A stretch of DNA of 64,000 nt, from IMG/VR virus record IMGVR_UViG_3300025598_000021; one strand, written 5' to 3'. This document shows, in pieces, positions 14,673 to 29,255 of this stretch. The translations under genes and the position numbers were made by a program. Position 1 is the first letter of the stretch; every line of letters begins with the position of its first letter. Below the pieces are notes generated by a model. The model saw only the letters and a list, made by a program, of their open reading frames with translations. It was not told the DNA's origin and searched no databases. The stretch comes from a virus.

Positions 14673-15119
14673 ATGTCAGTAAACAAGCTACAGCTCGAGA
14701 CAGACGGACTGGTTGTTGGAGTCAACCAGCTCGTCACCTCGGGTAACGGTGTAAGCGTAGGAAACAACCTAGTAGTTCGCGGTAACACGTACCTCAGTCC
14801 GGCGTCCGGACTGTTCATCGGTAACTCGACGGTAAATGTGGTCGTCAACTCGTCCTCAGTGTACGTCAACGGCGGGCCACTGAGCGGCACAAACACTTCT
14901 GCCCAGTACACGTGGACCAACACGCACACGTTCAACGCGCAGGTCGTATTGAACTCACAGATAACGCTAGCTACTACGCCGTTCTACGAGAACGCGACTA
15001 ACGTTACAGCTAACTACACGATATCAAACGGCATGAACGCGTTCTCTGCAGGTCCTATAACGATAAACTCCGGCGTAGTGGTGACCGTACCGGTCGGCTC
15101 GACTTGGTCAGTAAGTTAG
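14673..15119 (+). CDS. short fibre-like adaptor protein
   Basis: Shares the GNS.VNVV.NSSSVYVNGGPLSGTNT.AQY.W segment with 5774; C-terminal AGPITINSG..VTVP.GS.W motif. Confidence 0.55.
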   Translation: MSVNKLQLETDGLVVGVNQLVTSGNGVSVGNNLVVRGNTYLSPASGLFIGNSTVNVVVNSSSVYVNGGPLSGTNTSAQYTWTNTHTFNAQVVLNSQITLATTPFYENATNVTANYTISNGMNAFSAGPITINSGVVVTVPVGSTWSVS

Positions 15120-15129
15120 GAATTAAGAT

Positions 15130-16227
15130 ATGGCGTTAACACTCAGCGGTAACGGTGCGATAAGCGGTCCACTAAACCTAAACACAACCAACGCCGTGTC
15201 TATAGCTAACACGCTGAGCTTCGGCGACTCTACACAGATGAGTACGACTAACTCTCTTGGACCTAGAAATCGTATCATCAACGGTGACTTTAAGATATTT
15301 CAAAGATCAGCGACTGCTACAACAGTAACATTAAACGGTGTGGGTTATACAGGACCAGATAGGTTCTTTGTTTATCAGAATGGAACTGCCGGCGTACAAA
15401 CTACACAAGTTGCTTCAGGACTTACTGGATTTCAGTACGCACTAAAGTGGGGCAGACCAGTATCAAATACAACAACTGGTGTTACGGTTTTAGGTCAAGC
15501 ATTAGAAACTATAAATTCTGTAGATCTGCAAGGTCAGTCTGTCACTCTGTCTTTCTGGGCAAAAGCTGGCGCTAACTTCTCTGCTGCATCTAGTCAGATA
15601 TATGTTGCATTATACACTGGTACCGGAACAGATCAGTCTGCAGCAAATATGACTACAGGTTCATGGACAGGATCTGCTACACCTATAAGCGCGACTGCAA
15701 CTCTAACTACTTCATGGCAGAGGTTTTCATTTACTGCAACACTAGGTTCAACAGTAACACAGACAGGTGTCTATATAAACTGGTCTCCAGTGGGTACAGC
15801 AGGCGCTGATGACAACGTGTATATCACTGGTGTCCAACTAGAACAAGGTTCAGTAGCGACGCCGTTCGAACGTAGATCATATGGTATAGAGTTAGCGTTG
15901 TGTCAAAGATATTTCTTATCGTATTCAGGAAATAATCAAAATATTTGTTGTGGATCGGATAATGGCAATGCAGGCGCTCAAGGAAACGTTGTATTTCCTG
16001 TAACAATGAGGGTTGTACCTACTGCTTCTGTTAGTTCGGTAAGTCATTTCAGTTGGTATGCTAGTAAATCAGCGACAATTGTTGTTTTATCATCAATAAC
16101 TCATTGGAATTTATCTACTACTGGAGATGTTTTTGTTTTTACTGTAGGCAATCAAGGCGTTGGAGTTCCATACTCTGTATACATAAACACCGCTTCTGGT
16201 TATCTTTGGTACAACGCAGAATTATAA
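15130..16227 (+). CDS. tail fibre / receptor-binding protein with carbohydrate-binding-like domain
   Basis: RNRIINGDF.IFQR...VTLSFWAK...ITGVQLE.GS.ATPFERR.YG.ELALCQRY signature. Confidence 0.7.
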   Translation: MALTLSGNGAISGPLNLNTTNAVSIANTLSFGDSTQMSTTNSLGPRNRIINGDFKIFQRSATATTVTLNGVGYTGPDRFFVYQNGTAGVQTTQVASGLTGFQYALKWGRPVSNTTTGVTVLGQALETINSVDLQGQSVTLSFWAKAGANFSAASSQIYVALYTGTGTDQSAANMTTGSWTGSATPISATATLTTSWQRFSFTATLGSTVTQTGVYINWSPVGTAGADDNVYITGVQLEQGSVATPFERRSYGIELALCQRYFLSYSGNNQNICCGSDNGNAGAQGNVVFPVTMRVVPTASVSSVSHFSWYASKSATIVVLSSITHWNLSTTGDVFVFTVGNQGVGVPYSVYINTASGYLWYNAEL

Positions 16228-16237
16228 AGGTAATTAA

Positions 16238-16852
16238 ATGCCACTAAAACTACTATCACCAGGCGGAGGTTCGGTCACGCTAAACGCTGCGAGCACAGCT
16301 GCGACGACTACTCTTAATATTCCTGCTGTTAACGGAAACATCATCACTTCTGCTGATACTGGTACAGTTGTTCCTACATTATTAGCTAATCCTCTTACAA
16401 CACTTGGTTCTCAAACACTATCAGGAACTTATACAAATTTCACTAATATACCTTCTTGGGTTAGGCGAATTACTATTATGATAAGTTATTTACAAAATAA
16501 TAGCGGATCAGACAAATGTATTCAATTAGGAACATCAAGCGGATTTGTTACTACTGGATATGTTGGCGGAGAGGCTTATACTGGCGGATCAAGTGCCGCT
16601 GGTAACTGGAGTAGTGGAATAGTATTTCCAACAGGTTCTTCTAATGATATTATGCATGGTATAGTTACGATGTGTTTATTAACAGCAAACACTTGGGTAA
16701 TTTCTGGTTGTGGCGCTTATTCTAGTTCTAATAATACTTGGGAACTTGGTGGAACAATAGCACTTTCTTCAACACTAACTCAGTTTAGATTTGGATCCGT
16801 TGCTGGCACTGCGACTTGGACTCAAGGTACAGTCAACGCCTTATATGAATAA
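16238..16852 (+). CDS. tail fibre-like protein
   Basis: GSVTL.A..TA...L.IPA anchor motif; FTNIPSWVRRITI domain. Confidence 0.55.
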   Translation: MPLKLLSPGGGSVTLNAASTAATTTLNIPAVNGNIITSADTGTVVPTLLANPLTTLGSQTLSGTYTNFTNIPSWVRRITIMISYLQNNSGSDKCIQLGTSSGFVTTGYVGGEAYTGGSSAAGNWSSGIVFPTGSSNDIMHGIVTMCLLTANTWVISGCGAYSSSNNTWELGGTIALSSTLTQFRFGSVAGTATWTQGTVNALYE

Positions 16853-16861
16853 GGAACATTA

Positions 16862-17920
16862 ATGTCATATCTTAAAGTCGTAAACCTACAGCATCCAACT
16901 AGCGCGAACGTCAATATAACTCTCGACGCTAACAGCAACATGTATGTGAACAACACCGCGATAAACTACTATCAGGGTATGAAGAACCGTATCATCAACG
17001 GTGGTATGCAATTTTGGCAGAGAGGTACGTCTAATACTACAATTGGTAACGTTACAACGTATGTTGCAGACAGATGGTATGGATTTGTTGGAGCGCACGT
17101 CTTTCAACAGCAGATAGTTCAGAGCTCTAGCGTTCCTACTGGGTTTAATTACTCTGCAGCGTTTGGAAGACCATCGGGAAATACTAACGTAAATTCTGTA
17201 TGGTTTGCACAGAATATAGAATCAGTCAATATGATCGATCTGCAGTCTCAGTCTGTCACTCTGTCTTTCTGGGCAAAGACCGGAGCTAATTATTCTGGCG
17301 GCACAATGACAGTTCGCGTTTGTACTGGAACATCTGCAGACGAATCTGCTGCGACATTCAGTGCGGGTCCAGCGTCAGGGTATACTGGAAACGCTTATGT
17401 AGTGAACGCTACGCAGACTCTTACTGCTACTTGGACTAGATACTCATTCACTGGATCTGTAGCGTCTAATGCTCTAGAAATGGCAGTGGCTTTTGGATAT
17501 ACACCGACCGGTACAGCAGGTGCTGATGATAACATCTATATCACAGGAGTCCAACTCGAAGCGGGTTCTGCCGCTACTGCGTTTGAGAGAAGACTATATG
17601 GAACTGAATTAGCGCTGTGTCAGAGATATTATTATACTTCTGGAACATCTACAGCGCCTGGAGTCATGTTTCAAGCGCAAGGCACGACTACTACAGTTTC
17701 TTTTGTTCAGCATCCAGTCAAAATGAGAGTAACTCCAACATTTTCATATTCAGGAACTTGGACATATTCTATCAACGGAAGTGATACTTCAACTTCATCA
17801 GTAACTTCTAGTTCTATTACAGACTTTATTGCACAAATAGAAACAGCAACAAGTGGTTTAACTGTCGGTCAAGCTGGACGAATTAGAGGTGGTATATACA
17901 ACTTTTCAGCAGATTTTTAA
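16862..17920 (+). CDS. tail fibre / receptor-binding protein, paralog of 15130
   Basis: KNRIINGGMQFWQRG...VTLSFWAK...ITGVQLEAG...ELALCQRY. Confidence 0.7.
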   Translation: MSYLKVVNLQHPTSANVNITLDANSNMYVNNTAINYYQGMKNRIINGGMQFWQRGTSNTTIGNVTTYVADRWYGFVGAHVFQQQIVQSSSVPTGFNYSAAFGRPSGNTNVNSVWFAQNIESVNMIDLQSQSVTLSFWAKTGANYSGGTMTVRVCTGTSADESAATFSAGPASGYTGNAYVVNATQTLTATWTRYSFTGSVASNALEMAVAFGYTPTGTAGADDNIYITGVQLEAGSAATAFERRLYGTELALCQRYYYTSGTSTAPGVMFQAQGTTTTVSFVQHPVKMRVTPTFSYSGTWTYSINGSDTSTSSVTSSSITDFIAQIETATSGLTVGQAGRIRGGIYNFSADF

Positions 17921-17930
17921 GGAATTGGAC

Positions 17931-18191
17931 ATGACATACACTCTTACATCAACATCAATTATTATCAGAGATGCTGATAAATCTTGTATTCCAGCTGATC
18001 CAGGTAACGTGGACTATCAGCAGTACCTAGCTTGGGTCGCAGACGGTAACACGCCAAACCCATACGTCCCTCCACCGCCGCCTCCCGCGTCTCCTCAGCC
18101 GACCATCGCAGAGCTGCAGGCTCAGCTCGCGGCTATAGCGGCTCAGATAGCGGCGCTGGCCAACACCTCGACATCTAACACGGGAAGCTAA
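17931..18191 (+). CDS. fibre chaperone-like small protein (probable start ATG 17931)
   Basis: IPADPGNVDYQQYLAW.A.GNTP motif, Pro linker, short coiled coil. Confidence 0.55.
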   Translation: MTYTLTSTSIIIRDADKSCIPADPGNVDYQQYLAWVADGNTPNPYVPPPPPPASPQPTIAELQAQLAAIAAQIAALANTSTSNTGS

Positions 18192-19228
18192 TGTCACTAG
18201 AGAACGCACTCGCCAACCTAGCAAACTCTGCTAACGTACTCGCTACGGCGATCACGGTAAACGCTACTGCGATCACATCGATAAACGCTGCAAGTTATAG
18301 TGTCAGTACTAACGTCGTGGCGAACACGTCCGGCATATTCACTATCGGCGTGCCTATCGTATCTGGTAACGGGCTCTACTCTAACTCTACTTTCAATGGC
18401 ACGTATGGTGACGGTATAGTAGTCGACTACGTCACCGGCAATGGAAGAATCTCAGTTGGTGCAGCTGACTCACTGAGCTTCTATACCAACAACGTGGCCG
18501 GTAACCTGATGTTACAGATGAGCGCTACCGGTACTATCGTTAACGGTTCTATAAACGCCGCCTCTCATACGGTAGGAACTTCGTTTACTGCTAATTCTAC
18601 CATGACAAATACGGTGTCACTTGTCGTTTCTACTAACACTGCTACTATTGGAACTGGAACTTATTTTGTATCTAACGGTAACGTCGGTATAGGTAACTCT
18701 GCGCCGACTACTGCCCTGTCGGTGACAGGTGACATCAGCTATTCTGGTAACATAAACTTTCTGACCAACAACAAGTACCTGAACTTCAAGACCACAAACG
18801 GAAACACAGTCAACTTCGTCCAGCAGAACGACGACAACTTCGTCATGTACTCTACAAACACCGTCGGCGGTGCGAGACCAATATGGTCTGTGTACGCTAA
18901 CAGTATAACTTCTAATGTGAACTTTTCTGTGCCAGTAAATATATCAGGAAACATTCTAGGTCTTGGAAGTTCTTCTATAACCGCTAACGGATATACGTAT
19001 CTACCAAATGGATTACTACTTCAGTGGGGATCTGCACCTGCTTCTACTAGTGGTGTCACTTCTAACTTTCCTACACCATTTCCCACTAACGCTTTTGCAA
19101 TTGTGGCAGTAAACAACAATCAGACTAACCCTCCAGCCCCATCTGCAACTATTGTTAGCAGGTCTCAATTTAATCTAATCGTTTCAGCTGGATCGCCACA
19201 GTGTTATTATTTTGCGATAGGTAACTAG
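18191..19228 (+). CDS. tail fibre protein with gp53-like C-terminal domain
   Basis: NGYTYLPNGLLLQWG...FPTPFP...YFAIGN C-terminus; GNVGIG..P...L.V.G fibre repeat. Confidence 0.7.
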   Translation: MSLENALANLANSANVLATAITVNATAITSINAASYSVSTNVVANTSGIFTIGVPIVSGNGLYSNSTFNGTYGDGIVVDYVTGNGRISVGAADSLSFYTNNVAGNLMLQMSATGTIVNGSINAASHTVGTSFTANSTMTNTVSLVVSTNTATIGTGTYFVSNGNVGIGNSAPTTALSVTGDISYSGNINFLTNNKYLNFKTTNGNTVNFVQQNDDNFVMYSTNTVGGARPIWSVYANSITSNVNFSVPVNISGNILGLGSSSITANGYTYLPNGLLLQWGSAPASTSGVTSNFPTPFPTNAFAIVAVNNNQTNPPAPSATIVSRSQFNLIVSAGSPQCYYFAIGN

Positions 19229-19231
19229 AGA

Positions 19232-19239
19232 TATAAATA
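19232..19239 (+). promoter_or_regulatory. T4-type late promoter
   Basis: Intergenic TATAAATA. Confidence 0.8.
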
Positions 19240-19255
19240 TCTAAAAAGGTAATAG

Positions 19256-19597
19256 ATGGCACAGAACCAAAGACTAAGTTCACTCGGTGACGCGTTAAGT
19301 ACTGCGCAGTCTAACGGTCAGCTGTTAGCCGCTAATGGCGCCGGTGGATACTACTGGACCACACCTGGTGGTATACTAACTGTTAATACTACTCCACCCG
19401 CATCTGCTAACAGCGCGGACATGTGGCTGAACCCTTCTGATGGTATACTGTACACTTATATAAATACTGGATCGAGCAGTCAATGGATAGAATATGGTCC
19501 TAATGAGTTATATACTCCGACATACGTAGTCGATGGTGGCGCTGCTAATACGATCTATCAATTAACGCCATTGGTTGGCGGAGGAGCTGCTGGATGA
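19256..19597 (+). CDS. small tail-associated protein
   Basis: PP..A..ADMWLN..DGILY.Y...SSQWIE motif; late promoter at 19232. Confidence 0.55.
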   Translation: MAQNQRLSSLGDALSTAQSNGQLLAANGAGGYYWTTPGGILTVNTTPPASANSADMWLNPSDGILYTYINTGSSSQWIEYGPNELYTPTYVVDGGAANTIYQLTPLVGGGAAG

Positions 19598-19959
19598 CGA
19601 TTCAATATCAATATCGTAGAGACACGTCTGCGAATTGGACTGCAAACAATACTACGCTCGCTGTCGGCGAACCAGGTTATGAGATCGATACAGGTCGTCT
19701 CAAGATCGGCACGGGTTCTACCCCATGGAACTCACTAGCGTATACTTCAGTAAACCCTGCAGGCTCTAACACCAACGTCATATTCAACGGATCCGGATCT
19801 TTCGCAGCTAACGCTTCTTTCAGCTTCAACCAGGCTACGACGACTCTTACGATCGGTAACTCCTCAGTGAACACGTCGATGTCTAATACTGGCATAGCGA
19901 TCAACGGCGTCGCTGTTCCGTCTATAGTCACCATGCTAACGTATAACCTAGCGTTCTAA
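19594..19959 (+). CDS. Mtd_N-like (major tropism determinant N-terminal) domain protein
   Basis: QYRRDTSANW..NNT.LA.GEPGYE.DTGRLKIG.G.TPWNSLAY. Confidence 0.7.
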   Translation: MTIQYQYRRDTSANWTANNTTLAVGEPGYEIDTGRLKIGTGSTPWNSLAYTSVNPAGSNTNVIFNGSGSFAANASFSFNQATTTLTIGNSSVNTSMSNTGIAINGVAVPSIVTMLTYNLAF

Positions 19960-20612
19960 TGGCAATAAGCTTCCCAACTAGTCCAACAGTAGGTCAGACG
20001 TATACTTATAACAACCGTACATGGATATGGAACGGTTCCGGTTGGGCTATTCAACAGACTACACTGAACGCTATAGAGATCGCCACCGGTCTCGGCTATA
20101 TCCCGTTCTCTGAGAACGGCGGGCGCATCAACACTCTAGGACAGTCCGGTGAGACCGTAATATACGGCAACAACGTCACGACACCAAACCTCTATACGGC
20201 TAATCACTTCTTTGAGTCCACGCAGAACAACTACATACAGTACAATGGTTCTAATGCGTATTCGTTCATAGCCGGCGGTGCGAACGTAGGGTATGCAAAC
20301 AGCAGCTCGTTTAACTTTGGCAACACGGTAAGTAACAACGTCGTCAGTAATACTATAATAGCAAACAGTTATATAATAAGTAACGGCTATATAACAGCTA
20401 ATAGCTATATGTCTGTTGGTAACACGACTGTTAATACTTCAGCAAACGGTCTAATGTTTCACGCGCATATGGGATACACGAACGAGAAGACATTTGGTCT
20501 TGGATCGTACTCCACTAACGCAAGCCTAAATATGGTAATAGTCGGTCCATACACGATCGCGACCGGAAATACTTTTGTAGTAACTACTGGATCTAGAGTA
20601 GTCATAGTCTAA
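19959..20612 (+). CDS. fibre adaptor protein
   Basis: MAISFP.SP.VGQTYT...RTW.WNG..W N-terminus; C-terminal VGPYTIA.G....T.GSRVVIV. Confidence 0.55.
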   Translation: MAISFPTSPTVGQTYTYNNRTWIWNGSGWAIQQTTLNAIEIATGLGYIPFSENGGRINTLGQSGETVIYGNNVTTPNLYTANHFFESTQNNYIQYNGSNAYSFIAGGANVGYANSSSFNFGNTVSNNVVSNTIIANSYIISNGYITANSYMSVGNTTVNTSANGLMFHAHMGYTNEKTFGLGSYSTNASLNMVIVGPYTIATGNTFVVTTGSRVVIV

Positions 20613-20621
20613 GGAATTATT

Positions 20622-21929
20622 ATGAGTACTTTGTCTGTAACAACTATCACTTCAGCAAACGGAACGACCGATCTCACTCTATCTTCTGGCAATACGACCG
20701 CCGGACAGATGGTGGTGTTGTCGAACGGTGCCGGCGTGGTGCTAAAGAGCAACGCGACGTCTACTTCTCTTGGCGTATATTCTAACGGCACCATGACTCT
20801 GACTGGCAATCTAGTAGCCAGTAACATATCGTTTGGCACCAACACGAGCTTCGCGGCCAACGTAGGTATCGGCACGGCAAATCCAGCCGTCACGCTAGAC
20901 ATGAGTGCGAAGACAGACTCGATTCTTCTACCCATCGGTAACACTGCTAACAGAAACATTCTCACGTCCAACGGACAGCTCAGGTTCAACAACGACGTCG
21001 CTAGAAAAGAGTACTGCACTGCGGGTTTTTGGATAAACGAGCAGAACGGATATACGCAGGTCACCGGTAAGACTAGAGTAGCATTTCAGTACACTGGAGC
21101 TCTACAGTCTTGGACTATACCTTCTAACGTCAACTACATCTTCGTGAAGTTGTGGGGTGCAGGCGGTGGTGGTGGCTCATACGGCAGTTGGAGACAGGGT
21201 GCGACCGGCGGCGGTGGTGGATATTCTGAGGGAATAGTTCCGGTGGTCCCCGGTCAGACCCTGTACATTCGCGTCGGTCAGAACGGCTATGCCAGATGGT
21301 CTTCAAATAAAGCGTATCCGGACGGCGGCGCTTCTTCTACTTCTACAGGCGATAACCAGTACTGCGGAGCCGGTGGCGGCTCTACGAGCATCGCGACGCC
21401 AAACGTCAACGCAAATAACTGGTGTATGTACGCCGGAGGCGGTGGCGGTGGCGGATCCGTAAACGGTTGGGGTAGAAATCCTGGTGGCGCCGGCGGCGGT
21501 CTAACAGGTGAAGACGGTTTTACTGAGTTAACGTCCTATACACCATACGCGTACGTAGGCAAGGCAGGAACGCAGTCTGCAGGTGGAGCAGGTGGTACCG
21601 GCGGTACCGCAGTAGGTGGGGCTGGTTCAGCGAACCAAGGTGGTACTACTCAGAACGGTAACAGCTACGGTGGCGGTGGTGGCGGCGGCTACTACGGCGG
21701 TGGGTCTGGATCTTACGCAGGCTCTTCAATGGCTGGCGGCGGAGGTGGATCAGGCTACATTCATCCATCGATCATCAGAGGCGTGACTCTTACTGGCATT
21801 AGAGAATATCCAGCTATGCCTAACGACCCAGACGCTATAGCGTATTCACTTAACGGCATTAATAGGATAGGCGTCGGTGGCGACGAGGGTTCTAACGGCG
21901 GCTATGGTCTAGCCATAGTATACTACTGA
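20622..21929 (+). CDS. glycine-rich receptor-binding/adhesin-like tail protein
   Basis: NVGIGT.NP fibre repeat followed by WGAGGGGG...GGGGGGYYGGG...GGGGGSGY glycine-rich domain. Confidence 0.7.
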   Translation: MSTLSVTTITSANGTTDLTLSSGNTTAGQMVVLSNGAGVVLKSNATSTSLGVYSNGTMTLTGNLVASNISFGTNTSFAANVGIGTANPAVTLDMSAKTDSILLPIGNTANRNILTSNGQLRFNNDVARKEYCTAGFWINEQNGYTQVTGKTRVAFQYTGALQSWTIPSNVNYIFVKLWGAGGGGGSYGSWRQGATGGGGGYSEGIVPVVPGQTLYIRVGQNGYARWSSNKAYPDGGASSTSTGDNQYCGAGGGSTSIATPNVNANNWCMYAGGGGGGGSVNGWGRNPGGAGGGLTGEDGFTELTSYTPYAYVGKAGTQSAGGAGGTGGTAVGGAGSANQGGTTQNGNSYGGGGGGGYYGGGSGSYAGSSMAGGGGGSGYIHPSIIRGVTLTGIREYPAMPNDPDAIAYSLNGINRIGVGGDEGSNGGYGLAIVYY

Positions 21930-21936
21930 GGTTGAG

Positions 21937-22260
21937 ATGAACAGAGATCAAATAACACAAGCTCTAATGTTCTACGCGCCTCAGGCAAAGTGGGAATTCA
22001 CTCCCATGATAGATATGGAGAACGCTGGATACACCAACATCATATGGAAAGATCCTTTCTATAAGAAGCCGACCATGAAAGAGCTTCAGCAGTACTACAG
22101 AGACTCTGTAGAGGCTTATAAGAATCAAGTGCTGTATAAGCTCGAGAGACAACACCACTATCCATCGGTAGAAGAGCAGCTAGACTTTATATATCACAAC
22201 GGTATCGACGCTTGGAAAGAAAGAATCAAAGCAGTTAAAGATAAGTTTCCAAAGAAGTAA
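21937..22260 (+). CDS. tail fibre assembly chaperone-like protein
   Basis: YPSVEEQLD.IYH.GIDAWK..IKAVKDKFPK; paralog of 9103. Confidence 0.65.
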   Translation: MNRDQITQALMFYAPQAKWEFTPMIDMENAGYTNIIWKDPFYKKPTMKELQQYYRDSVEAYKNQVLYKLERQHHYPSVEEQLDFIYHNGIDAWKERIKAVKDKFPKK

Positions 22261-22273
22261 GCAGGATTAAAGT

Positions 22274-22936
22274 ATGTCTACGTTACAAGTCGCCAATATA
22301 TATTTTGAATCTTCTGGCAACAACAGGATCCAGTATCTTGGATCTAATAACTATTCTTTTTATGCCGGCGGCTTGCCTACACTCACTGTCAACACGTCCA
22401 CAGTACTGTTTACAGCTTCTATGTCGTTTACGAGCATCGGTGCAAACACAGCCAGCGCTAATACGCTTACAGCAAACTCGTTTACCGTCGTGAATAACTA
22501 CTTTGTAGCTAACGGCTGGGTAGGACTAGGCAACTCGACTCCGATAGATAAGTTCTACGTGCAGGGTAACATCGTCGCATCCGGCGACGTGACTACCTCA
22601 TACTCAGACGAGAGACTAAAGACTCTGCTCTATAAGATCGAGCGTCCTCTAGAAAAGATAAATAGTCTAAACGGCTGGGCCTATAGCCCATCTGCTCTAT
22701 CTCTGAAGTTAAATCCTGAACAGAAGAATGAAATAAAACTAGGTGTTATAGCGCAAGAAGTCGAGAGCGTACTGCCTGAGATAGTTTCTATCGCTCCTTT
22801 TGATAGAAACGCTAATGGAGAGTCTGTCTCTGGCGATAAATACCTTACGGTTAGTTATGATAGAATTGTACCTGTTTTAATTGAGGCTATAAAAGAACTG
22901 ACTTCTAGAATAGAGAAATTAGAATCTAGGAGGTAG
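22274..22936 (+). CDS. short tail fibre with peptidase S74 intramolecular chaperone
   Basis: YSDERLK cleavage motif, GVIAQEVESVLPEIV, V.YDRIVPVLIEAIKEL coiled coil. Confidence 0.85.
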   Translation: MSTLQVANIYFESSGNNRIQYLGSNNYSFYAGGLPTLTVNTSTVLFTASMSFTSIGANTASANTLTANSFTVVNNYFVANGWVGLGNSTPIDKFYVQGNIVASGDVTTSYSDERLKTLLYKIERPLEKINSLNGWAYSPSALSLKLNPEQKNEIKLGVIAQEVESVLPEIVSIAPFDRNANGESVSGDKYLTVSYDRIVPVLIEAIKELTSRIEKLESRR

Positions 22937-22938
22937 CT

Positions 22939-23112
22939 ATGGCGTTTAAGATTGGTTCGACTACTATAGTAAATAATAGTATTCAGATACCATGGTCTCA
23001 GATCGATCTTTCGTCGTATGGAAACTATATCAATTCAGTATATTTTACCGGTTCTGATAAGATCATCAACGTTTATAACTCCGGTTCAGTCTTATACATC
23101 ATAAGGACTTAA
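22939..23112 (+). CDS. 57-aa mini-protein, paralog 1 of the Cys-tailed peptide (not in ORF track)
   Basis: Manual translation MAFKIGSTTIVNNSIQIPWSQIDLSSYGNYINSVYFTGSDKIINVYNSGSVLYIIRT*; strong RBS AGGAGG; fills the gap exactly. Confidence 0.8.
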   Translation: MAFKIGSTTIVNNSIQIPWSQIDLSSYGNYINSVYFTGSDKIINVYNSGSVLYIIRT

Positions 23113-23116
23113 TAGA

Positions 23117-23293
23117 ATGGCTTTTAAGATCGGAAGCACTGTCGTTATCGATAATTCCGGAAACGTTCCATGGTCTACTGTAGGATCCATTCCTTCTGGT
23201 ACCGTGATATCTATATCGGCGCCGAGCAGCGGCGGTGGCGTATATAGAGTAAGTGGGTGGGACGGTTACAATCTGACTTTCTATAGATCATAG
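23117..23293 (+). CDS. 58-aa mini-protein, paralog 2 (not in ORF track)
   Basis: Manual translation MAFKIGSTVVIDNSGNVPWSTVGSIPSGTVISISAPSSGGGVYRVSGWDGYNLTFYRS*; RBS AAGGA; same N-terminus as its neighbours. Confidence 0.8.
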   Translation: MAFKIGSTVVIDNSGNVPWSTVGSIPSGTVISISAPSSGGGVYRVSGWDGYNLTFYRS

Positions 23294-23304
23294 GTCAACA
23301 CACG

Positions 23305-23562
23305 ATGGCGTTAAAAGTAAACACGACTACGGTCTTCAACAACAGCGCAAAGATTCCATACACGCAGGTGAGTGGTTTTCCACAGCTTGTGACTTCTGCT
23401 AGTTCTACTCCTACAGGTGATGGCACTAATCCGATCGGTGGCACAGGCACCTACTGCTACGCTTTCAGCTTCAGTGGTGGATCGCTAGTCGCTACATTTG
23501 ATACTAACTGTGCATGCGTTTGTGCGTGCTGCTGTTGTTGCGCCTGCTGTTGTAACTGTTAG
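23305..23562 (+). CDS. Cys-tailed peptide; candidate radical SAM substrate (RiPP-like precursor / fibre-tip subunit)
   Basis: Ends NCACVCACCCCCACCCNC*; N-terminus MALKVNTTTVFNNS..IPY paralogous to the two upstream mini-ORFs; lies near an rSAM/SPASM gene. Confidence 0.8.
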   Translation: MALKVNTTTVFNNSAKIPYTQVSGFPQLVTSASSTPTGDGTNPIGGTGTYCYAFSFSGGSLVATFDTNCACVCACCCCCACCCNC

Positions 23563-23570
23563 TTAGAGTT

Positions 23571-24458
23571 ATGGCAACTAATTTAAAGATATTCACATAT
23601 GGTTCGAACAATCCATCAATAGCGTCGATTACAGAATCATCTAATGGAAATATTGAAATAAGAATTAAGGCGGTCGATCAGCTATCTTATGACATGCCTA
23701 ATGAAGACGCGTGCAACTATATTTGGAACTTCAATCCAAAAGAATTATTAAAGTCTAAAGACCAATGTCCAAATAAAGCAGGAGTCTTTGATCTAGTAGG
23801 TTTTTCGACCAAAGACATAGTGAAGGGGACACCGATAGTTACTCCTCCGCTAGTCAATAGACTTAAGACGTACTATCAGTCTAACTTTAAAAGACTAGAG
23901 AGTAATGACTTCTTTGGCTCAATAGATATAAATCCTAAACACACAAATATATCTCTGCGCATGCAGGCCAACTGCAAGATAATTTCAAACCTATCATATG
24001 ATACCTTTGATTATGTAAAAGACAATGGTTATACGCAAGCACTTGGCACGTCTATATTAATTACGCCGCCGTCGAATAAGCACCAAGGAAACACCACGCC
24101 AGTGCCACAAGACGTGTATCCTTTTACTCTTTCATACAGTGGTCCTACGCAGATACCACTAAGTGGCGGAATATTTAATATATCATTCGACTTTGATAAT
24201 CATGGAATAAAAGGTAAAGGTGGTAAGAACAAGAATCCAGGTAAAAAACCAGGTCAAGAGTATCATGACTTGTGCGACTACAACGTAGTATATGCCAACG
24301 CTGATAAAGGTAAGATCGATCCTTCTTGTAAGATAATAAATAAAAAAGGAAGTATAAGCTTTGATCCTACTGGGCTGTCAGTAGGAGACACAGTTACGGT
24401 AGATATTGGAGTGCACTGGTTTCTACTATCAATAAGAATACAGTTTCAAATAATATAA
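23571..24458 (+). CDS. hypothetical protein with beta-rich/Ig-like C-terminus; accessory of the rSAM cluster
   Basis: 295 aa ORF between the peptide and the rSAM; C-terminal G.ISF...GL..GDTVTV.IG beta-strand pattern. Confidence 0.5.
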   Translation: MATNLKIFTYGSNNPSIASITESSNGNIEIRIKAVDQLSYDMPNEDACNYIWNFNPKELLKSKDQCPNKAGVFDLVGFSTKDIVKGTPIVTPPLVNRLKTYYQSNFKRLESNDFFGSIDINPKHTNISLRMQANCKIISNLSYDTFDYVKDNGYTQALGTSILITPPSNKHQGNTTPVPQDVYPFTLSYSGPTQIPLSGGIFNISFDFDNHGIKGKGGKNKNPGKKPGQEYHDLCDYNVVYANADKGKIDPSCKIINKKGSISFDPTGLSVGDTVTVDIGVHWFLLSIRIQFQII

Positions 24459-24475
24459 ATGATAAGGATTTTATT

Positions 24476-25792
24476 ATGTTTGAATTGATTATGATAGATC
24501 AAGAAAATAAAAGACGTTCTATATTTTATGATCCACATAAGTCTACCGTCTCTGATAAAGATGGAAAAGATATACTAATAACTGATGTTAAACCTCATTC
24601 TTGCTTTAAGAAAGCAATAGGTATATCGCCGACAAATCCTGGCTCAAAGGTATCCAAATTAAGTAAAATTCGTATCCAGTTAGGACTCGGGTGTAACTAT
24701 TCATGCTCGTACTGTCTTCAGAAAGATCAAATTAAAGATTCAACAAAGACAAGTCTTAGAGACGCTGAAATATTCATGAAGAATCTAGACAAGTGGGTAG
24801 AAGGAGCTCCAGCAGAGATTGAGTTCTGGGGAGGTGAGCCTCTTCTTTATTGGAATAAGATTAAGTTTCTTCTTGAAAAATTAACTGAAAGATTTCCGGA
24901 AGTTTCATATCTTATTATCACCAACGGAAGCTTGATAGATGACGATTTTATTGAGACCGTAGAGAAATATAACATTAGAGTCGCTATATCTCATGATGGT
25001 CCTGGTCAGTATAACCGAGGACCAGATCCATTAGACAATCCTATACAGTTTGAGATGATTAAGAAGTTCTTCGATCGTAGAAAAAACAACATGAGTTTTA
25101 ACTCAGTGATCACCCCTTCTAATATGAATCTCGATAAGATAGAACAGTTCTTTAAATCAAAGTTTGGTCAAGAAGCGAGAATAAGTTTTGAAGGTGTAGT
25201 GATAAACTACGACGACGGTGAGTCAAATACTTTTACTACTGAGCAGTATAATGAACTTTCTAAGAACGTAGCGATGTCTTGTATGAGACCATTTGAGAAT
25301 CTACCTAATACGTTCCAGATAAAGATTCGCGAATTCATGAAGACTCTACAGAATAAGTTAAGTTCTGATTCTGTATTTCAGAAGTGCGGAATGGACAGAG
25401 AAGACTATATAGCCGTAGATCTATTAGGTAACGTCATGACGTGTCAGAATACTGGTTCTACTGGAAAGCATAGAATTGGACACGTCTATTCGCTAGATAA
25501 AGTTAAACTTAATACGTCGTGGCATTGGTCGCAGAGAGAAGAATGCTCCCACTGTCCCGTGCTGCAGCTATGTGCAGGATCGTGCATGTATGTTGAGGGT
25601 CCAAGCTGGTATCACTCGTGCAACAATGAATACTACTACAACATGGGAATACTCGCAGGAGCGATGTATCATATGACTGGAATGATCTTAGAAGAAGTAA
25701 AAGGAGAGACCTGGAGGCCGGATCCAGCTGACTATGGCGTTACTATTAAAGATCATAGTCAAAATATAGTTGATGGACTTTTAGAAGTATGA
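24476..25792 (+). CDS. radical SAM enzyme with SPASM domain (peptide/protein maturase type)
   Basis: CNYSCSYC (CxxxCxxC), FWGGEPLL, ITNG, ISHDG; SPASM Cys pattern CG...C...CSHC...CAGSC...C. Confidence 0.92.
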   Translation: MFELIMIDQENKRRSIFYDPHKSTVSDKDGKDILITDVKPHSCFKKAIGISPTNPGSKVSKLSKIRIQLGLGCNYSCSYCLQKDQIKDSTKTSLRDAEIFMKNLDKWVEGAPAEIEFWGGEPLLYWNKIKFLLEKLTERFPEVSYLIITNGSLIDDDFIETVEKYNIRVAISHDGPGQYNRGPDPLDNPIQFEMIKKFFDRRKNNMSFNSVITPSNMNLDKIEQFFKSKFGQEARISFEGVVINYDDGESNTFTTEQYNELSKNVAMSCMRPFENLPNTFQIKIREFMKTLQNKLSSDSVFQKCGMDREDYIAVDLLGNVMTCQNTGSTGKHRIGHVYSLDKVKLNTSWHWSQREECSHCPVLQLCAGSCMYVEGPSWYHSCNNEYYYNMGILAGAMYHMTGMILEEVKGETWRPDPADYGVTIKDHSQNIVDGLLEV

Positions 25793-26535
25793 GACAGCTA
25801 AAGATAGATGAGACCGTTTGTCTTGATGATTTAGTAGATGTAGAAGAACTTAAGTCTCTTCATGATAGATTATGTGTGTCTATAGCCAATGCGTACGACG
25901 ACGGAAGAGTTTCAGTACAGTCTCTTGGAAATTTGCTGTCTGAGAGATATCCATATCCTAGCATACTAGATAAATTTATTCAATTTGGAAAAGCTAAAGT
26001 AAATATTCCTAAAGAAATAGACAATAATGACAAGCTATTAAGATACATAATGTTCACTGAAAAGACTACCGGAATAGCTAGTGTAATAAGTATATTTAAT
26101 TATAAAATCAGCGATGATCATAAAATTAGTAAAAACTATAAAGAATTTTATTCTATAATAGAGTGGATAAAGAAACAGGATCTATACTCAGAACTTATAC
26201 AGTGTAATCTAGTATTAAGTCAGAGCGGTGAACCAACACCTATTCACGATCATCCTAGACCAAAGAGTTTTCCAAATAGCTTTGAAGAAATAGACGAAGA
26301 GACAAGATTTTCTTTATGGATAAGACTTAACACTGATAGAAAATTATTCATGTACGATCATAAAACAAAAACTAAACACTATATAAAAGACAAAGATGGC
26401 GGTGGACTGGTGTTCTATTGGGATTCTAGCAGCTTCCATGGTGCCGATCCGTCATGGAACGCCACGTACGCGTTCGTGATAACGGGTATTCCATCAAAAA
26501 AACTGTTTGATTTTATTGATCAAAAACTCAAATAA
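25789..26535 (+). CDS. cupin/DSBH Fe(II) oxygenase-like protein
   Basis: TPIHDH...FYWDSSSFHGAD metal-ligand spacing; ATGA-coupled to the rSAM gene. Confidence 0.6.
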   Translation: MRQLKIDETVCLDDLVDVEELKSLHDRLCVSIANAYDDGRVSVQSLGNLLSERYPYPSILDKFIQFGKAKVNIPKEIDNNDKLLRYIMFTEKTTGIASVISIFNYKISDDHKISKNYKEFYSIIEWIKKQDLYSELIQCNLVLSQSGEPTPIHDHPRPKSFPNSFEEIDEETRFSLWIRLNTDRKLFMYDHKTKTKHYIKDKDGGGLVFYWDSSSFHGADPSWNATYAFVITGIPSKKLFDFIDQKLK

Positions 26536-26563
26536 ATAAATTAAAAAAAGATAGGATAAACAG

Positions 26564-27247
26564 ATGTCAACATTAACGGTAGGTAACATCACAGGAACGC
26601 CTATAATTAGTTCTGGACCTATAACAGGTACCGGTGATTTTACTACTACCGGCAATATAACTGCCAATAATCTAACAGCTAATGGTACTTTTACCGGTAA
26701 TAATCTTACAGGTAATAGCTTTTCTGGTAATAATTTTTACGGCATCAACGCATCGATTAATACTCTGCAGCCAAGATCTGGTAATCTTATAAGTGTTCCT
26801 GTTGGTTATAATATCTATTCTCCAGGTACTCCTGTGCAGACCGTTATAAACAGAGTCACGTCTTCATATAGTACATCGTCTTCAACTCTTAGTAATTTTT
26901 TTAATACTTCTATAACTATTAAAACGGTGGCTCCTATAATTATGGTTTTTCTACACTGTAAGCAGAGGTGTGACGTTAGTGGAACTTGGAATCTAGCGTA
27001 TTTTCAGATATACGAAAATCTTACAGCAACACCGGTAGCGTATTCTGGATATAACGGTGTTAACGCTTCTGGTTGGATTCATGATTATACTACAGAAAAA
27101 CCGTTCTATGCTCCTGGAGCTATAGGAACAACATATACATTTGCGCTTAATGTCGGTTCGTATAGTGGAACACAGTATTTTAATTCTCCATCAAACTCAT
27201 CAGATGATGGTTATGCAATAATGAAATTAACAGAGATAGCGAGATAA
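26564..27247 (+). CDS. tail fibre tip protein
   Basis: MSTLTVGNI start; PGTPVQTV...MKLTEIA tip domain like the C-terminus of 5774. Confidence 0.65.
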   Translation: MSTLTVGNITGTPIISSGPITGTGDFTTTGNITANNLTANGTFTGNNLTGNSFSGNNFYGINASINTLQPRSGNLISVPVGYNIYSPGTPVQTVINRVTSSYSTSSSTLSNFFNTSITIKTVAPIIMVFLHCKQRCDVSGTWNLAYFQIYENLTATPVAYSGYNGVNASGWIHDYTTEKPFYAPGAIGTTYTFALNVGSYSGTQYFNSPSNSSDDGYAIMKLTEIAR

Positions 27248-27680: not shown

Positions 27681-29255
27681 TTGGCAACGACTTATCAGAA
27701 AATCTCGGGTTTAACCACCGCTTCTGGCGCGGGTGCGAACGATAGATTCGTAATCCTAACCAATGCCACGTCTACGCCTCTCCTGCAGACGATATCCTAC
27801 CCTGTAGTTCTTACTACAATATCTGGCAGCTTCGTCAACACGACGTCTCCTATTATCTCCAATTCTATTACCGTAAATACTTACTTCGCGGCTAATACCT
27901 CAGGCACATACACGGTAAACGCCTACGCCAATAACCTGACGGTAAACACCGCAAACGTCAACGTCAAGCTACAGGTCGGCAACGCTGCCGTAGGATTCGC
28001 GTTCGGCGCCGCGGCTTTGGTTCAGGTAGACGGCAACCAGAATACGTATGTACAGACTATCCTACAGAACGCTAACTCCGGCACAAACGCTACTACCGAT
28101 CTAATACTCACGGCCGATACTGGCACAGACTCTATAAACTATCTAGACATCGGCATCAACAGTTCTACTTATTCTAATACGCAGTATACCATCGGCAGCC
28201 CACTAGACGGCTACATATACGCTAGTAACTCTAATCTAACGATAGGCACCGCCACGGCGAATGAGCTAGTATTTCACGCTAACGGTACCACGAGCTCAGA
28301 TAGAAAATTAACCGTAAACGCCACTTCAGTATACGTATCAAATAACGTAAGCTTTATATCAAATTCCGGAACGTTCTATGGAGCGGTGACTGTAGGAACG
28401 AACCTAACGGTCAATGGAAACTTCTCAGTAACTGGCAACGTAACGTTCGCCGGTAACACCACGTTTATTAACGCCACCGTCATAACCACTAACGACAAGA
28501 ACTTCATACTAGCAAACAATGCCGCCACTGCTCTAGCGGCTGACGGTGCAGGTATCATCATTGGATCTTATGCCAACCTCGTATATGACAACGTAACAAA
28601 CTCTTGGCAGTCCAACGTAGGTATCACGCCTCTCACTAATAACTTAAATCTCGGCAATACCAGTCTAGTATGGAATATATTCTCTAATAATATCACAGCT
28701 GCAAACGTTCTAGTCGGCACTACTTCGGGCTTCACTAGAGCTAACTCTTCAGCGGTCTCAGTAGGTAACTCTACGGTAAACACCACCATCACGTCTACGA
28801 CTGTCACAATAGCAGCAAACAATCTAGGTGGATTCTACGTCGGTAACACCGTCAGTAACTCGTACGTAAACGCTACTGGATTCTTTACCACCGGTAAGAT
28901 CGGCGTCTCTAACGCTGCTTCTTCTGACACGATCAGAGTCGAGGGAACGATCAGCGCTCTAGCGTCACTCGCGGTCAGCAACTCGTCCGGCGTCATTACT
29001 CTCGCTAATACGTCTGGTCTCTTTATAAATAATGCATCTGGTTCAATAAACGTTGGTAACTCAACGGTAAATACATTTTCAAATTCTACTTACTTATTCT
29101 CAGGTAACTCGACATTCTACGGATTTGTCAATTCAACTGCAGAAGCTATAGTGAGTCCTACCAGTAATACGATAATTACCGCAAACGGAATAACCACAAA
29201 CGGAATACCGTATCCTACTGTAGTAACAATGTTAACTTATAATCTAGCCTTCTAA
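27681..29255 (+). CDS. tail fibre protein (TTG start)
   Basis: KISGLT N-terminal motif, beta-repeat N/T/S-rich body, C-terminal VTMLTYNLAF; late promoter at 27645. Confidence 0.7.
   Translation: MATTYQKISGLTTASGAGANDRFVILTNATSTPLLQTISYPVVLTTISGSFVNTTSPIISNSITVNTYFAANTSGTYTVNAYANNLTVNTANVNVKLQVGNAAVGFAFGAAALVQVDGNQNTYVQTILQNANSGTNATTDLILTADTGTDSINYLDIGINSSTYSNTQYTIGSPLDGYIYASNSNLTIGTATANELVFHANGTTSSDRKLTVNATSVYVSNNVSFISNSGTFYGAVTVGTNLTVNGNFSVTGNVTFAGNTTFINATVITTNDKNFILANNAATALAADGAGIIIGSYANLVYDNVTNSWQSNVGITPLTNNLNLGNTSLVWNIFSNNITAANVLVGTTSGFTRANSSAVSVGNSTVNTTITSTTVTIAANNLGGFYVGNTVSNSYVNATGFFTTGKIGVSNAASSDTIRVEGTISALASLAVSNSSGVITLANTSGLFINNASGSINVGNSTVNTFSNSTYLFSGNSTFYGFVNSTAEAIVSPTSNTIITANGITTNGIPYPTVVTMLTYNLAF

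What the first reader, a model, noticed from the sequence alone, without database searches (positions are those of the whole stretch)
22939..23562. Three tandem paralogous mini-proteins (57, 58, 85 aa) with a shared N-terminus; only one carries the Cys tail
Seen (two are absent from the ORF track): MAFKIGSTTIVNNSIQIPWSQI, MAFKIGSTVVIDNSGNVPWSTV and MALKVNTTTVFNNSAKIPYTQV share MA(F/L)K(I/V)xxTxxxxNSxx(I/V)P(W/Y) and then diverge. Each has a plausible start, and they tile the interval tightly. Inference, two readings: (a) a common leader recognised by the rSAM system, with different cores; or (b) a fibre-docking segment, so the three could form a heterotrimeric cap on the S74-cleaved trimeric fibre upstream, with only one subunit presenting the modified Cys tail.
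Basis: partly seen in the sequence, partly recalled or inferred. Interest (0 to 1): 0.82.

Follow-up and report, generated by a model that had tools for sequence, protein, structure and literature searches.

The report
Three-gene phage fibre tip, cysteine-ladder tail
Three tiny neighbouring phage genes are real, conserved paralogues that most likely build a three-chain cap at a tail-fibre tip, one chain ending in a cysteine ladder that the adjacent radical-SAM enzyme probably cross-links; I found this fibre chemistry in no paper.

Summary
Three tightly packed ORFs (57, 58 and 85 aa) share an N-terminal motif, and only the third ends in a Cys ladder (12 Cys in 17 residues). They are real genes: the same trio sits in the same place in two distant T4-like phage contigs, the family has 75 clusters among 1.84 billion proteins, and single-copy relatives show dN/dS of 0.07-0.16.

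The shared N-terminus is not a RiPP leader. The same motif occurs six times inside a 1601-aa S74 fibre. It also heads collagen-like, glycine-rich and peptidoglycan-binding proteins that have no radical-SAM neighbour. Fibres in cultured phages JWF and RSP15 keep the ladder and the enzyme without the motif.

The three paralogues are homologous end to end, and the tailless two stop exactly where the ladder begins. Across 40 loci the copy number is 1 or 3, never 2, and triples arose at least three times. A three-chain model passed its controls (0.62 vs 0.33).

Best reading: a heterotrimeric fibre-tip module with one ladder, which the PapB-like SPASM enzyme modifies. Docking onto the S74-cleaved fibre is inferred.

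This scan has already noted the ladder-plus-enzyme module on other phage DNA. New here are the split three-gene form and the 1-or-3 rule.

The parts
22274..22936 (+). Short tail fibre with a C-terminal S74 intramolecular-chaperone (self-cleaving) domain. Its stop lies 2 nt before mini-protein 1.
   Evidence: Pfam Peptidase_S74 scores 38.9 bits against a cut-off of 22 at residues 111-171. Many PHROG tail-fibre families match. Homologues sit upstream of the minis in L004 and L005.
22939..23112 (+). Mini-protein 1 (57 aa), tailless: N-terminal fibre motif plus C-terminal hairpin, no ladder.
   Evidence: It was returned as P0002, seen on 12 contigs. It falls in the tailless clade and is chain 1 of the modelled trimer.
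23117..23293 (+). Mini-protein 2 (58 aa), tailless paralogue.
   Evidence: It was returned as P0001, seen on 9 contigs. It is chain 2 of the modelled trimer.
23305..23562 (+). Mini-protein 3 (85 aa): the same N-motif and hairpin, followed by a C-terminal Cys ladder.
   Evidence: Orthologues are in L004 (50% identity) and L005 (36%, fused to a Hint-like domain). Its C-terminal half aligns to the region before the Hint domain of phage JWF fibre gp028 (35% over 54 aa).
23509..23559 (+). The Cys ladder itself (residues 69-85, 12 Cys), ending at the stop codon. It is the probable substrate of the rSAM.
   Evidence: Read directly from the sequence. Thirty of 75 family clusters end in a strict (C-X)n-C ladder, and the commonest X are N, A, D and V.
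23571..24458 (+). Conserved 295-aa accessory protein. The C-terminal domain is Ig-like; the N-terminal 180 aa are of unknown fold.
   Evidence: Homologues occur in L004, L005, RSP15 ORF047 and about 35 further loci. In the model only residues 183-295 are confident. These match intimin/invasin-type Ig domains at Z about 10.
24476..25792 (+). Radical SAM enzyme with a SPASM domain (CX3CX2C near residue 73; CX2CX5CX3C near residue 360), of the thioether-forming peptide-maturase type.
   Evidence: Pfam Radical_SAM 4.6e-13; phrog_1802 3.9e-59. The best NCBIfam hit is the PapB ranthipeptide maturase at 3.2e-27, below its cut-off. PDB matches are 8vpo, anSME and CteB. It follows the minis in every locus whose contig reaches that far.
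25789..26535 (+). 248-aa protein overlapping the rSAM stop by 4 nt; probably a cupin/2OG oxygenase of the Asp/Asn beta-hydroxylase type (a lead only).
   Evidence: No Pfam hit. The nearest named ESM Atlas clusters carry PF05118, with feature score 0.95 and TM 0.59-0.63. Related loci carry 2OG-FeII_Oxy_5 proteins in the cassette.

Best explanation
The three ORFs encode paralogous subunits of one small, three-chain, beta-rich fibre-tip module.

Each chain has an N-terminal fibre segment (M-A-F/Y-K-V/I-G-S/T-T-x-V-x-D/N-x-S-x-x-V/I-P/D-W), a short linker and a C-terminal hairpin. Chains 1 and 2 stop after the hairpin. Chain 3 continues into a (Cys-X)n ladder that must be the free C-terminus.

I propose that one copy of each assembles into a heterotrimer, so that the tip shows a single ladder. 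The PapB/NxxcB-like SPASM radical SAM enzyme encoded two genes downstream then converts ladder cysteines into thioether cross-links. The conserved Ig-domain accessory protein and a cupin-type oxygenase probably help.

The module probably continues the upstream short fibre after its S74 chaperone domain has cut itself off.

Shown: the genes are real and conserved; the N-motif is a fibre motif; the ladder and the rSAM co-occur; a model supports assembly. Inferred: 1:1:1 stoichiometry; the chemistry of the modification; docking on the S74-cleaved fibre; a role in host contact.
For: 1. The genes are real. The same trio (tailless, tailless, ladder) lies between an S74 fibre and accessory-plus-rSAM genes in L004 and L005, whose rSAMs are 53% and 44% identical to the window's. 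The family profile finds 75 clusters at E<=1e-3 among 1.84e9 proteins, nearly all starting at residue 1. The single-copy ladder gene has dN/dS of 0.07-0.16.

2. The N-motif is a fibre element. It occurs six times inside P0018 (1601 aa; six Phage_fiber_2 repeats plus S74), each time between a GNVGIGT..P..KL.V.G segment and a Phage_fiber_2 repeat. It heads collagen-like, Gly-rich, PG-binding and propeller proteins. In L054, L068 and L090 such proteins follow an S74 fibre gene, directly or after the accessory gene.

3. The ladder is a fibre C-terminus tied to the rSAM. JWF fibre gp028 ends its fibre part in N-C-N-C-D-C-N-C-N-C-S, followed by a Hint domain above Pfam threshold that starts at the next Cys. 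RSP15 side fibre ORF048 ends in ...T-N-C-Q-C-G-N. Both are followed by an rSAM 36-37% identical to the window's, and RSP15 also carries a homologue of the accessory protein.

4. Evidence for a trimer. The three-chain model scored ipSAE 0.62 (median of 3) against a best control of 0.33. The runs agree in at least 92% of contacts and the partner's pLDDT is at least 60. That mark was reached by 58 of 80 solved complexes and 2 of 110 mismatched pairs, though these counts hold only roughly because my own alignments were used. Copy number is 1 in 34 loci and 3 in 5 (window included), never 2 or 4. The triples of the window clade, L034 and L043 arose independently.

5. Chemical precedent. PapB links Cys to the carbon next to a carboxylate, including a free C-terminal one (PMC12373016). 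NxxcB makes Cys-Asn beta-thioethers and tolerates Ala, Gln and Asp (PMC9389541); the ladder's X residues are mostly N, A, D and V. CrpC installs such links on a Cys-rich protein (PMC13692751).
Against: - The complex model cannot tell a heterotrimer from three homotrimers. Paralogues of a trimer-forming fold would also pass.
- The 1-or-3 rule rests on only three independent triple lineages, and most single-copy loci belong to a few related clades.
- In L034 two chains of the triple, and in L043 all three, carry ladders, so 'one ladder per tip' is not general.
- No solved structure or Pfam family matches the minis, and I could not inspect the model's geometry.
- Collagen-like N-motif proteins have no S74 gene nearby, so the motif need not dock on S74-cleaved ends.
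- The rSAM scores far below every NCBIfam equivalog cut-off, so its chemistry is open. The ladder could instead bind metal or form disulfides.
- There are no expression or proteomic data.
Confidence: 0.55

Rival explanations
1. Alternative tips. Each of the three paralogues forms its own homotrimer, and the shared N-terminus lets them compete for the same docking site. The phage would then carry a mix of fibre tips, ladder-bearing and bare, to widen or hedge host recognition.
For: A shared N-terminus with different C-terminal domains is the usual mark of interchangeable fibre or spike modules. The same N-motif heads very different tips elsewhere. Most loci have one ladder gene, which must act as a homo-oligomer. 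The fused fibres of JWF and RSP15 would be homotrimers with three ladders.
Against: Copy numbers of 2 or 4 would be expected but were not seen in 40 loci. The tailless chains have only about 30 residues beyond the motif and end exactly at the ladder junction, which looks like a truncated subunit rather than a binding domain. The mixed trimer is modelled with confidence, and replacing chain 2 lowers the score from 0.62 to 0.33.
Confidence: 0.25
2. RiPP reading. The three are precursor peptides with a common leader that the rSAM or its partner binds, and the matured cores are released as free peptides.
For: Small tandem genes with a conserved N-terminus and variable remainder lie beside a PapB/SCIFF-like SPASM maturase. 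A conserved accessory protein of unknown N-terminal fold could be a recognition partner.
Against: The motif is internal in a long fibre and heads proteins with no rSAM context. JWF and RSP15 keep the rSAM and the ladder without the motif. The two tailless chains have no Cys to modify. No protease or exporter was recognised in the cassette. The ladder sits on bona fide fibres and is exposed by Hint self-cleavage. The chains are predicted to fold together.
Confidence: 0.08
3. The ladder is a metal- or cluster-binding or disulfide element rather than a thioether substrate, and the rSAM acts on something else. The trio is still structural.
For: Alternating Cys on one face of a strand suits metal-thiolate binding. 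From my own recall, unchecked here, the T4 gp37 fibre tip uses His-X-His repeats to bind iron. Some S74 chaperone ends also carry CxC motifs (L005, L034, P0018).
Against: The ladder and this rSAM clade co-occur across unrelated phage types. The enzyme's nearest characterised relatives all make Cys thioethers. The X residues match known acceptor preferences.
Confidence: 0.12

Closest known systems
CrpC/CrpA of Methanococcus voltae (PMC13692751)
   Same: A SPASM radical SAM enzyme encoded beside a Cys-rich protein substrate, rather than a short RiPP, on which it installs ranthionine thioether cross-links.
   Different: It is archaeal and cellular and has no link to a virion. CrpC has a predicted RRE, and none was detected here. 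Here the substrate is an alternating Cys ladder at the extreme C-terminus of a fibre module, split into three paralogous genes.
NxxcB/NxxcA (streptococcal RaS-RiPP; PMC9389541) and PapB/PapA (PMC12373016)
   Same: These are thioether-forming SPASM enzymes. NxxcB links Cys to the Asn beta-carbon and tolerates Ala, Gln and Asp. PapB links Cys to the carbon next to a carboxylate, including the free C-terminus. The ladder is rich in N, A and D and is always C-terminal.
   Different: The window enzyme scores 95.6 bits against the PapB model's cut-off of 340, so it is not a member. Those systems make free peptides from leader-core precursors, whereas here the N-terminus is a fibre motif.
Ladder-tipped fibres of Achromobacter phage JWF (gp028-gp030) and Ralstonia phage RSP15 (ORF048-ORF045)
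   Same: They have the same hairpin and Asn/Cys ladder at the fibre's end, and an rSAM 36-37% identical. RSP15 also has the accessory protein.
   Different: There the ladder is the C-terminus of a full-length fibre: a homotrimer, with JWF's ladder exposed by a Hint domain. Here it is a separate 85-aa gene with two tailless paralogues and an S74 fibre upstream. Their genome records annotate these genes only generically.
S74 intramolecular-chaperone fibres (endosialidase type; Pfam PF13884)
   Same: The upstream gene has the S74 self-cleaving C-terminal domain.
   Different: To my knowledge (recall, unchecked) no protein is known to attach to the end exposed by S74 cleavage. That step is my inference.

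Membership tests
RiPP precursor with leader peptide | Short precursor gene beside its maturase | tested here: met
   Three ORFs of 57-85 aa lie 914-1364 nt upstream of the rSAM gene.
RiPP precursor with leader peptide | The conserved N-terminal region is specific to the maturase context (a recognition sequence) | tested here: not met
   The motif is internal six times in fibre P0018. It heads collagen-like and other proteins without an rSAM. JWF and RSP15 have the rSAM and the ladder but no motif.
RiPP precursor with leader peptide | An RRE or other leader-binding domain, and a leader protease or exporter, in the cluster | tested here: inconclusive
   No such family was found by Pfam, PHROGs or NCBIfam. 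The rSAM has only about 60 residues before its core. The accessory protein's N-terminal 180 aa could not be modelled.
PapB-family ranthipeptide maturase (NCBIfam NF047865) | Score at or above the curated cut-off | tested here: not met
   95.6 bits against a cut-off of 340; E 3.2e-27.
SPASM radical SAM peptide/protein maturases (broad class) | CX3CX2C radical SAM motif plus the C-terminal CX2CX5CX3C SPASM motif | tested here: met
   C-N-Y-S-C-S-Y-C and C-S-H-C-P-V-L-Q-L-C-A-G-S-C are read in the translation. Full-length matches to PapB, SCIFF, CcpM and anSME models and to PDB 8vpo, 4k37 and 5wgg.
SPASM radical SAM peptide/protein maturases (broad class) | Thioether formation on the neighbouring Cys-rich substrate | not testable with these tools
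   This needs anaerobic co-expression and mass spectrometry.
Pfam Phage_fiber_2 (PF03406) | Match to the repeat model | tested here: not met
   None of 9 members matches even at E<=10. The N-motif lies next to, not inside, the repeats of P0018.
Peptidase_S74 fibre (upstream gene) | Pfam PF13884 above threshold | tested here: met
   38.9 bits against a cut-off of 22, residues 111-171.
Hint/intein-like self-cleaving domain after the ladder (fused relatives) | Pfam Hint family above threshold, starting at the Cys after the ladder | tested here: inconclusive
   JWF gp028 meets it: PF05203 at 47.5 bits against a cut-off of 32.1, residues 308-344. L005, P0015, P0038 and P0042 are below threshold at 18-27 bits. 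The L005 fold failed at pLDDT 36. The window's own chain 3 has no such domain.
Asp/Asn beta-hydroxylase (PF05118) for the 248-aa protein | Family match | tested here: inconclusive
   No Pfam hit at E<=0.1. Only language-model and predicted-structure neighbours were found (0.95; TM 0.59-0.63).

The most novel reading that the evidence does not exclude
Phages build an asymmetric, heterotrimeric cap from three paralogous mini-genes. The cap docks on the end exposed when the fibre's S74 chaperone cuts itself off, and it shows a single enzymatically thioether-stapled cysteine ladder as the host-contact element. That would be both a heterotrimeric phage fibre tip and a radical-SAM-modified virion protein.
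Probability: 0.3. Interest if true: 0.85.

Novelty: new variant of a known kind. Interest (0 to 1): 0.72.

Why it matters
Fibre tips decide which bacteria a phage can attack. If phages stiffen or chemically alter these tips with radical-SAM enzymes, that adds a layer of host-range determination that cannot be read from the fibre sequence alone. Engineering a fibre without its enzyme could then fail.

The split three-gene form gives a simple test system: three peptides under 90 aa plus one enzyme. It also suggests that some trimeric fibres end asymmetrically. I found no paper describing either point; the pelagimyophage paper only mentions radical-SAM cassettes in the host-recognition cluster (PMC7029224).

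Tried and rejected
- blastn of the cassette against 50,697 phage records found no match.
- Single-protein scans of viral contigs with the rSAM and with chain 3 found nothing. Alignment-based scans worked.
- A word-index search for longer proteins carrying the family found none, which is weak evidence. The exhaustive search later found fused forms.
- The 54-sequence alignment A4 was too diverse for a locus scan.
- tblastn of mini 2 against cultured phages gave only chance-level hits at E 0.8.
- A PDB sequence search with the family profile gave only ribosomal L3 at E 1.7, which is chance. Pfam and NCBIfam found nothing on the minis.
- The fold of the 295-aa accessory protein was confident only for the C-terminal Ig-like domain. 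No RRE-like domain could be shown or excluded.
- The fold of the L005 ladder-Hint fusion had pLDDT 36 and was unusable.
- The PP-loop-like protein of L004, L005 and L043 is absent from this phage record, which is 74% complete, so it is not core.
- The promoter/terminator scan found no more sites than in shuffles.

Full report
**What is there.** The window is part of a 125.5-kb IMG/VR virus record estimated 74% complete. Its major capsid protein is 63-68% identical to those of T4-like myoviruses of Stenotrophomonas, Sinorhizobium and Pelagibacter. The finding lies in a long run of + strand tail-fibre genes.

The order of genes is:
- a 220-aa fibre with a Peptidase_S74 self-cleaving chaperone domain (22274-22936);
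- three small ORFs (22939-23112, 23117-23293, 23305-23562);
- a 295-aa protein of no known family (23571-24458);
- a radical SAM/SPASM enzyme (24476-25792);
- a 248-aa protein overlapping the enzyme's stop (25789-26535).

The intergenic gaps are 2, 4, 11, 8 and 17 nt, so this is one tightly packed block. A consensus scan found no more promoter- or terminator-like sites than in shuffled sequence.

**The observation.** It is confirmed. The three ORFs share M-A-F/L-K-I/V-x-x-T-x-x-x-x-N-S-x-x-I/V-P-W/Y, with pairwise E-values of 5e-8 to 8e-6, and they are the only three copies in the phage record. Only the third carries the Cys tail: 12 Cys in residues 69-85, with mixed TGT and TGC codons.

One correction is needed. 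The three proteins are homologous over their whole length. All have a C-terminal strand-turn-strand, and the two short ones end exactly where the ladder starts in the third.

**Are they genes?** Yes.
- Two distant viral contigs carry the same arrangement: S74 fibre, two tailless minis, one ladder mini, accessory protein, rSAM. These are L004 and L005, whose rSAMs are 53% and 44% identical to the window's.
- An exhaustive profile search of 1.84 billion representative proteins found 75 clusters at E<=1e-3 and 13 at E<=1e-10. Nearly all begin at residue 1 with the motif.
- Of these 75, 30 end in a strict (C-X)n-C ladder, 19 are short and tailless, and three are ladder-Hint fusions.
- In a clade where the ladder gene is single-copy, pairwise dN/dS is 0.07-0.16.

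**What the N-terminus is.** It is a fibre element, not a leader.
- In P0018 (1601 aa; six Pfam Phage_fiber_2 repeats and an S74 domain) the motif recurs six times. Each copy lies between a G-N-V-G-I-G-T..P..K-L-x-V-x-G segment and a Phage_fiber_2 repeat.
- The same motif heads collagen-like proteins with a G-T-W-R knob, a peptidoglycan-binding protein, a beta-propeller protein and a glycine-rich-domain protein.
- The collagen-like ones have no rSAM or S74 gene nearby.
- In L054, L068 and L090 the motif-bearing proteins follow an S74 fibre gene, directly or after the accessory gene.
- The window's own S74 fibre ends its mature part with the same kind of segment (G-W-V-G-L-G-N-S-T-P..F-Y-V-Q-G...) that precedes the motif in P0018.

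That last point is the sequence basis, and no more than that, for proposing that the minis continue the fibre after the chaperone leaves.

**What the ladder is.** It is a fibre C-terminus tied to this enzyme. The window's rSAM has full-length relatives, 36-37% identical, in the cultured Achromobacter phage JWF and Ralstonia phage RSP15.
- In JWF, two genes upstream of the rSAM lies a 483-aa T4-gp36-like fibre. Its fibre part ends in a hairpin and N-C-N-C-D-C-N-C-N-C-S. A Hint domain follows, scoring above Pfam's threshold and starting at the very next Cys.
- In RSP15 the side tail fibre ends ...L-I-L-S-M-S-N-T-N-C-Q-C-G-N. It is followed by a homologue of the 295-aa protein, an H-x-D...H protein and the rSAM.
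- Chain 3 of the window aligns to the JWF fibre over linker, hairpin and ladder (35% over 54 aa). Neither cultured phage has the N-motif.
- In 38 further viral loci the ladder mini, an accessory homologue, one or two cupin/2OG-like proteins, an S74 fibre and the rSAM travel together. The rSAM is present wherever the contig reaches.

Because the ladder is either the last residues of the protein or is followed by a self-cleaving Hint domain, a free C-terminus seems to be required.

**One or three.** Across 40 loci the number of mini genes is 1 (34 loci) or 3 (the window, L004, L005, L034, L043), never 2 or 4.
- A tree places the tailless chains of the window, L004 and L005 in one clade apart from the ladder chains.
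- The L034 triple (ladder, tailless, ladder) lies inside another subfamily, and the L043 triple (three ladders) lies elsewhere. Triples therefore arose at least three times.
- The two tailless genes of L005 are sisters, which fits renewal of a lost copy.

This pattern is what a trimer predicts: one gene for a homotrimer, three for a heterotrimer. The number of independent lineages is small.

**Assembly model.** I sent the three chains, each with its family alignment, to the complex predictor. The score was 0.62 (median of three runs: 0.62, 0.65, 0.44) against a best control of 0.33. The partner's pLDDT was at least 60, and the runs agreed in at least 92% of contacts.

That mark was reached by 58 of 80 solved complexes and 2 of 110 mismatched pairs. 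These counts hold only roughly, because I used my own alignments and three chains.

The confident interface covers residues 15-65 of chain 3, and the ladder is not in it. The model supports binding but does not show it, and it cannot separate a heterotrimer from three homotrimers.

**The enzyme and its helpers.** The rSAM has C-x3-C-x2-C and a C-x2-C-x5-C-x3-C SPASM motif. Its best curated matches are thioether-forming maturases (PapB 3.2e-27, SCIFF, CcpM), all far below their cut-offs. Its best solved relatives are 8vpo, anSME and CteB.

Published chemistry fits the ladder:
- PapB joins Cys to the carbon next to a carboxylate, including a free C-terminal one (PMC12373016).
- NxxcB makes Cys-Asn beta-thioethers and accepts Ala, Gln and Asp (PMC9389541). 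The X residues of the ladders are N 47, A 17, D 17, V 16, R 10 and Q 5.
- CrpC does this on a Cys-rich protein (PMC13692751).

In the model of the 295-aa protein only a C-terminal Ig-like domain is confident. The 248-aa protein resembles viral Asp/Asn beta-hydroxylases only by language-model and predicted-structure neighbours.

**Verdict.** I put 0.55 on a heterotrimeric fibre-tip module whose single ladder is modified by the rSAM, 0.25 on three alternative homotrimeric tips, about 0.1 on free RiPPs, and about 0.1 on a ladder that binds metal rather than being cross-linked.

**Relation to earlier notes of this scan.** Other agents' notes report the ladder-plus-rSAM module, often with a Hint domain, on other phage DNA, including JWF-like and Burkholderia phages. 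I reached JWF and RSP15 independently before reading them. I took from them only the lead to the CrpC paper, which I checked.

New here are the split three-gene form with tailless paralogues, the identification of the N-motif as a fibre segment, the 1-or-3 rule and the trimer model. My paper searches found no description of any of this.

Noticed in passing
L005:3998-5068; L034:1032-3908; P0018 C-terminus: Some S74 chaperone domains, the part that is cut off, themselves end in short CxC motifs: ...R-K-C-N-C-S-K-R-H-T; ...A-C-T-C-S-N...T-C-A-C-G-E-N-P-T-C-A-C-E-T; ...A-N-C-K-Q-C-P-C-S. The window's own S74 fibre has none. The released chaperone may also meet the rSAM, or this may be chance.
   Followed up: no
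L005:8911-9309: A 132-aa ORF right after the rSAM repeats the rSAM's N-terminal 30-residue motif (...F-Y-D-P-K-T-S...) and its SPASM-end segment (37-40% identity to the rSAM C-terminus). It lacks the radical SAM core, so it is a truncated paralogue or a remnant.
   Followed up: partly
L004:4950-6065; L005:9539-10519; L043:7878-9173: A protein with an S-G-G-L-D-S (PP-loop ATPase-like) motif follows the rSAM in three loci. It has no Pfam hit and is absent from the window's phage record. It is an optional extra enzyme of the cassette.
   Followed up: partly
window 20622-21929, and L068:941-1846: The window has a 435-aa fibre with an ALK/LTK-type glycine-rich domain (Pfam 8.6e-20). In L062 and L068 a similar glycine-rich domain carries the mini-proteins' N-motif and directly follows an S74 fibre gene. 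Tips therefore appear to be swapped between N-terminal adaptors.
   Followed up: partly
window 19594-19959 and 27681-29255: Two otherwise different fibre proteins (121 and 524 aa) end in the same decapeptide V-T-M-L-T-Y-N-L-A-F. Four fibres start M-S-T/Y-L-x-V (14673-27247 region). Earlier first-stage notes also flagged both.
   Followed up: no
L022:5268-6011 and 6330-6971 (typical of L008-L042): In the high-GC single-copy clade the ladder gene is flanked by two oxygenase-like genes. One is 2OG-FeII_Oxy_5 at 25.8 bits, just under its cut-off; the other has an ...H-N-Q-H-P-Y... motif and no Pfam hit. The S74 fibre there is a short collagen-like one.
   Followed up: partly
L080:5719-6204: A 162-aa N-motif protein with an unusually long double ladder (...N-C-N-C-A-S-D-Y-G-S-F-N-N-C-N-C-N-C-A-C-N-C-N-C-N-C) lies between two rSAM genes.
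   Followed up: no
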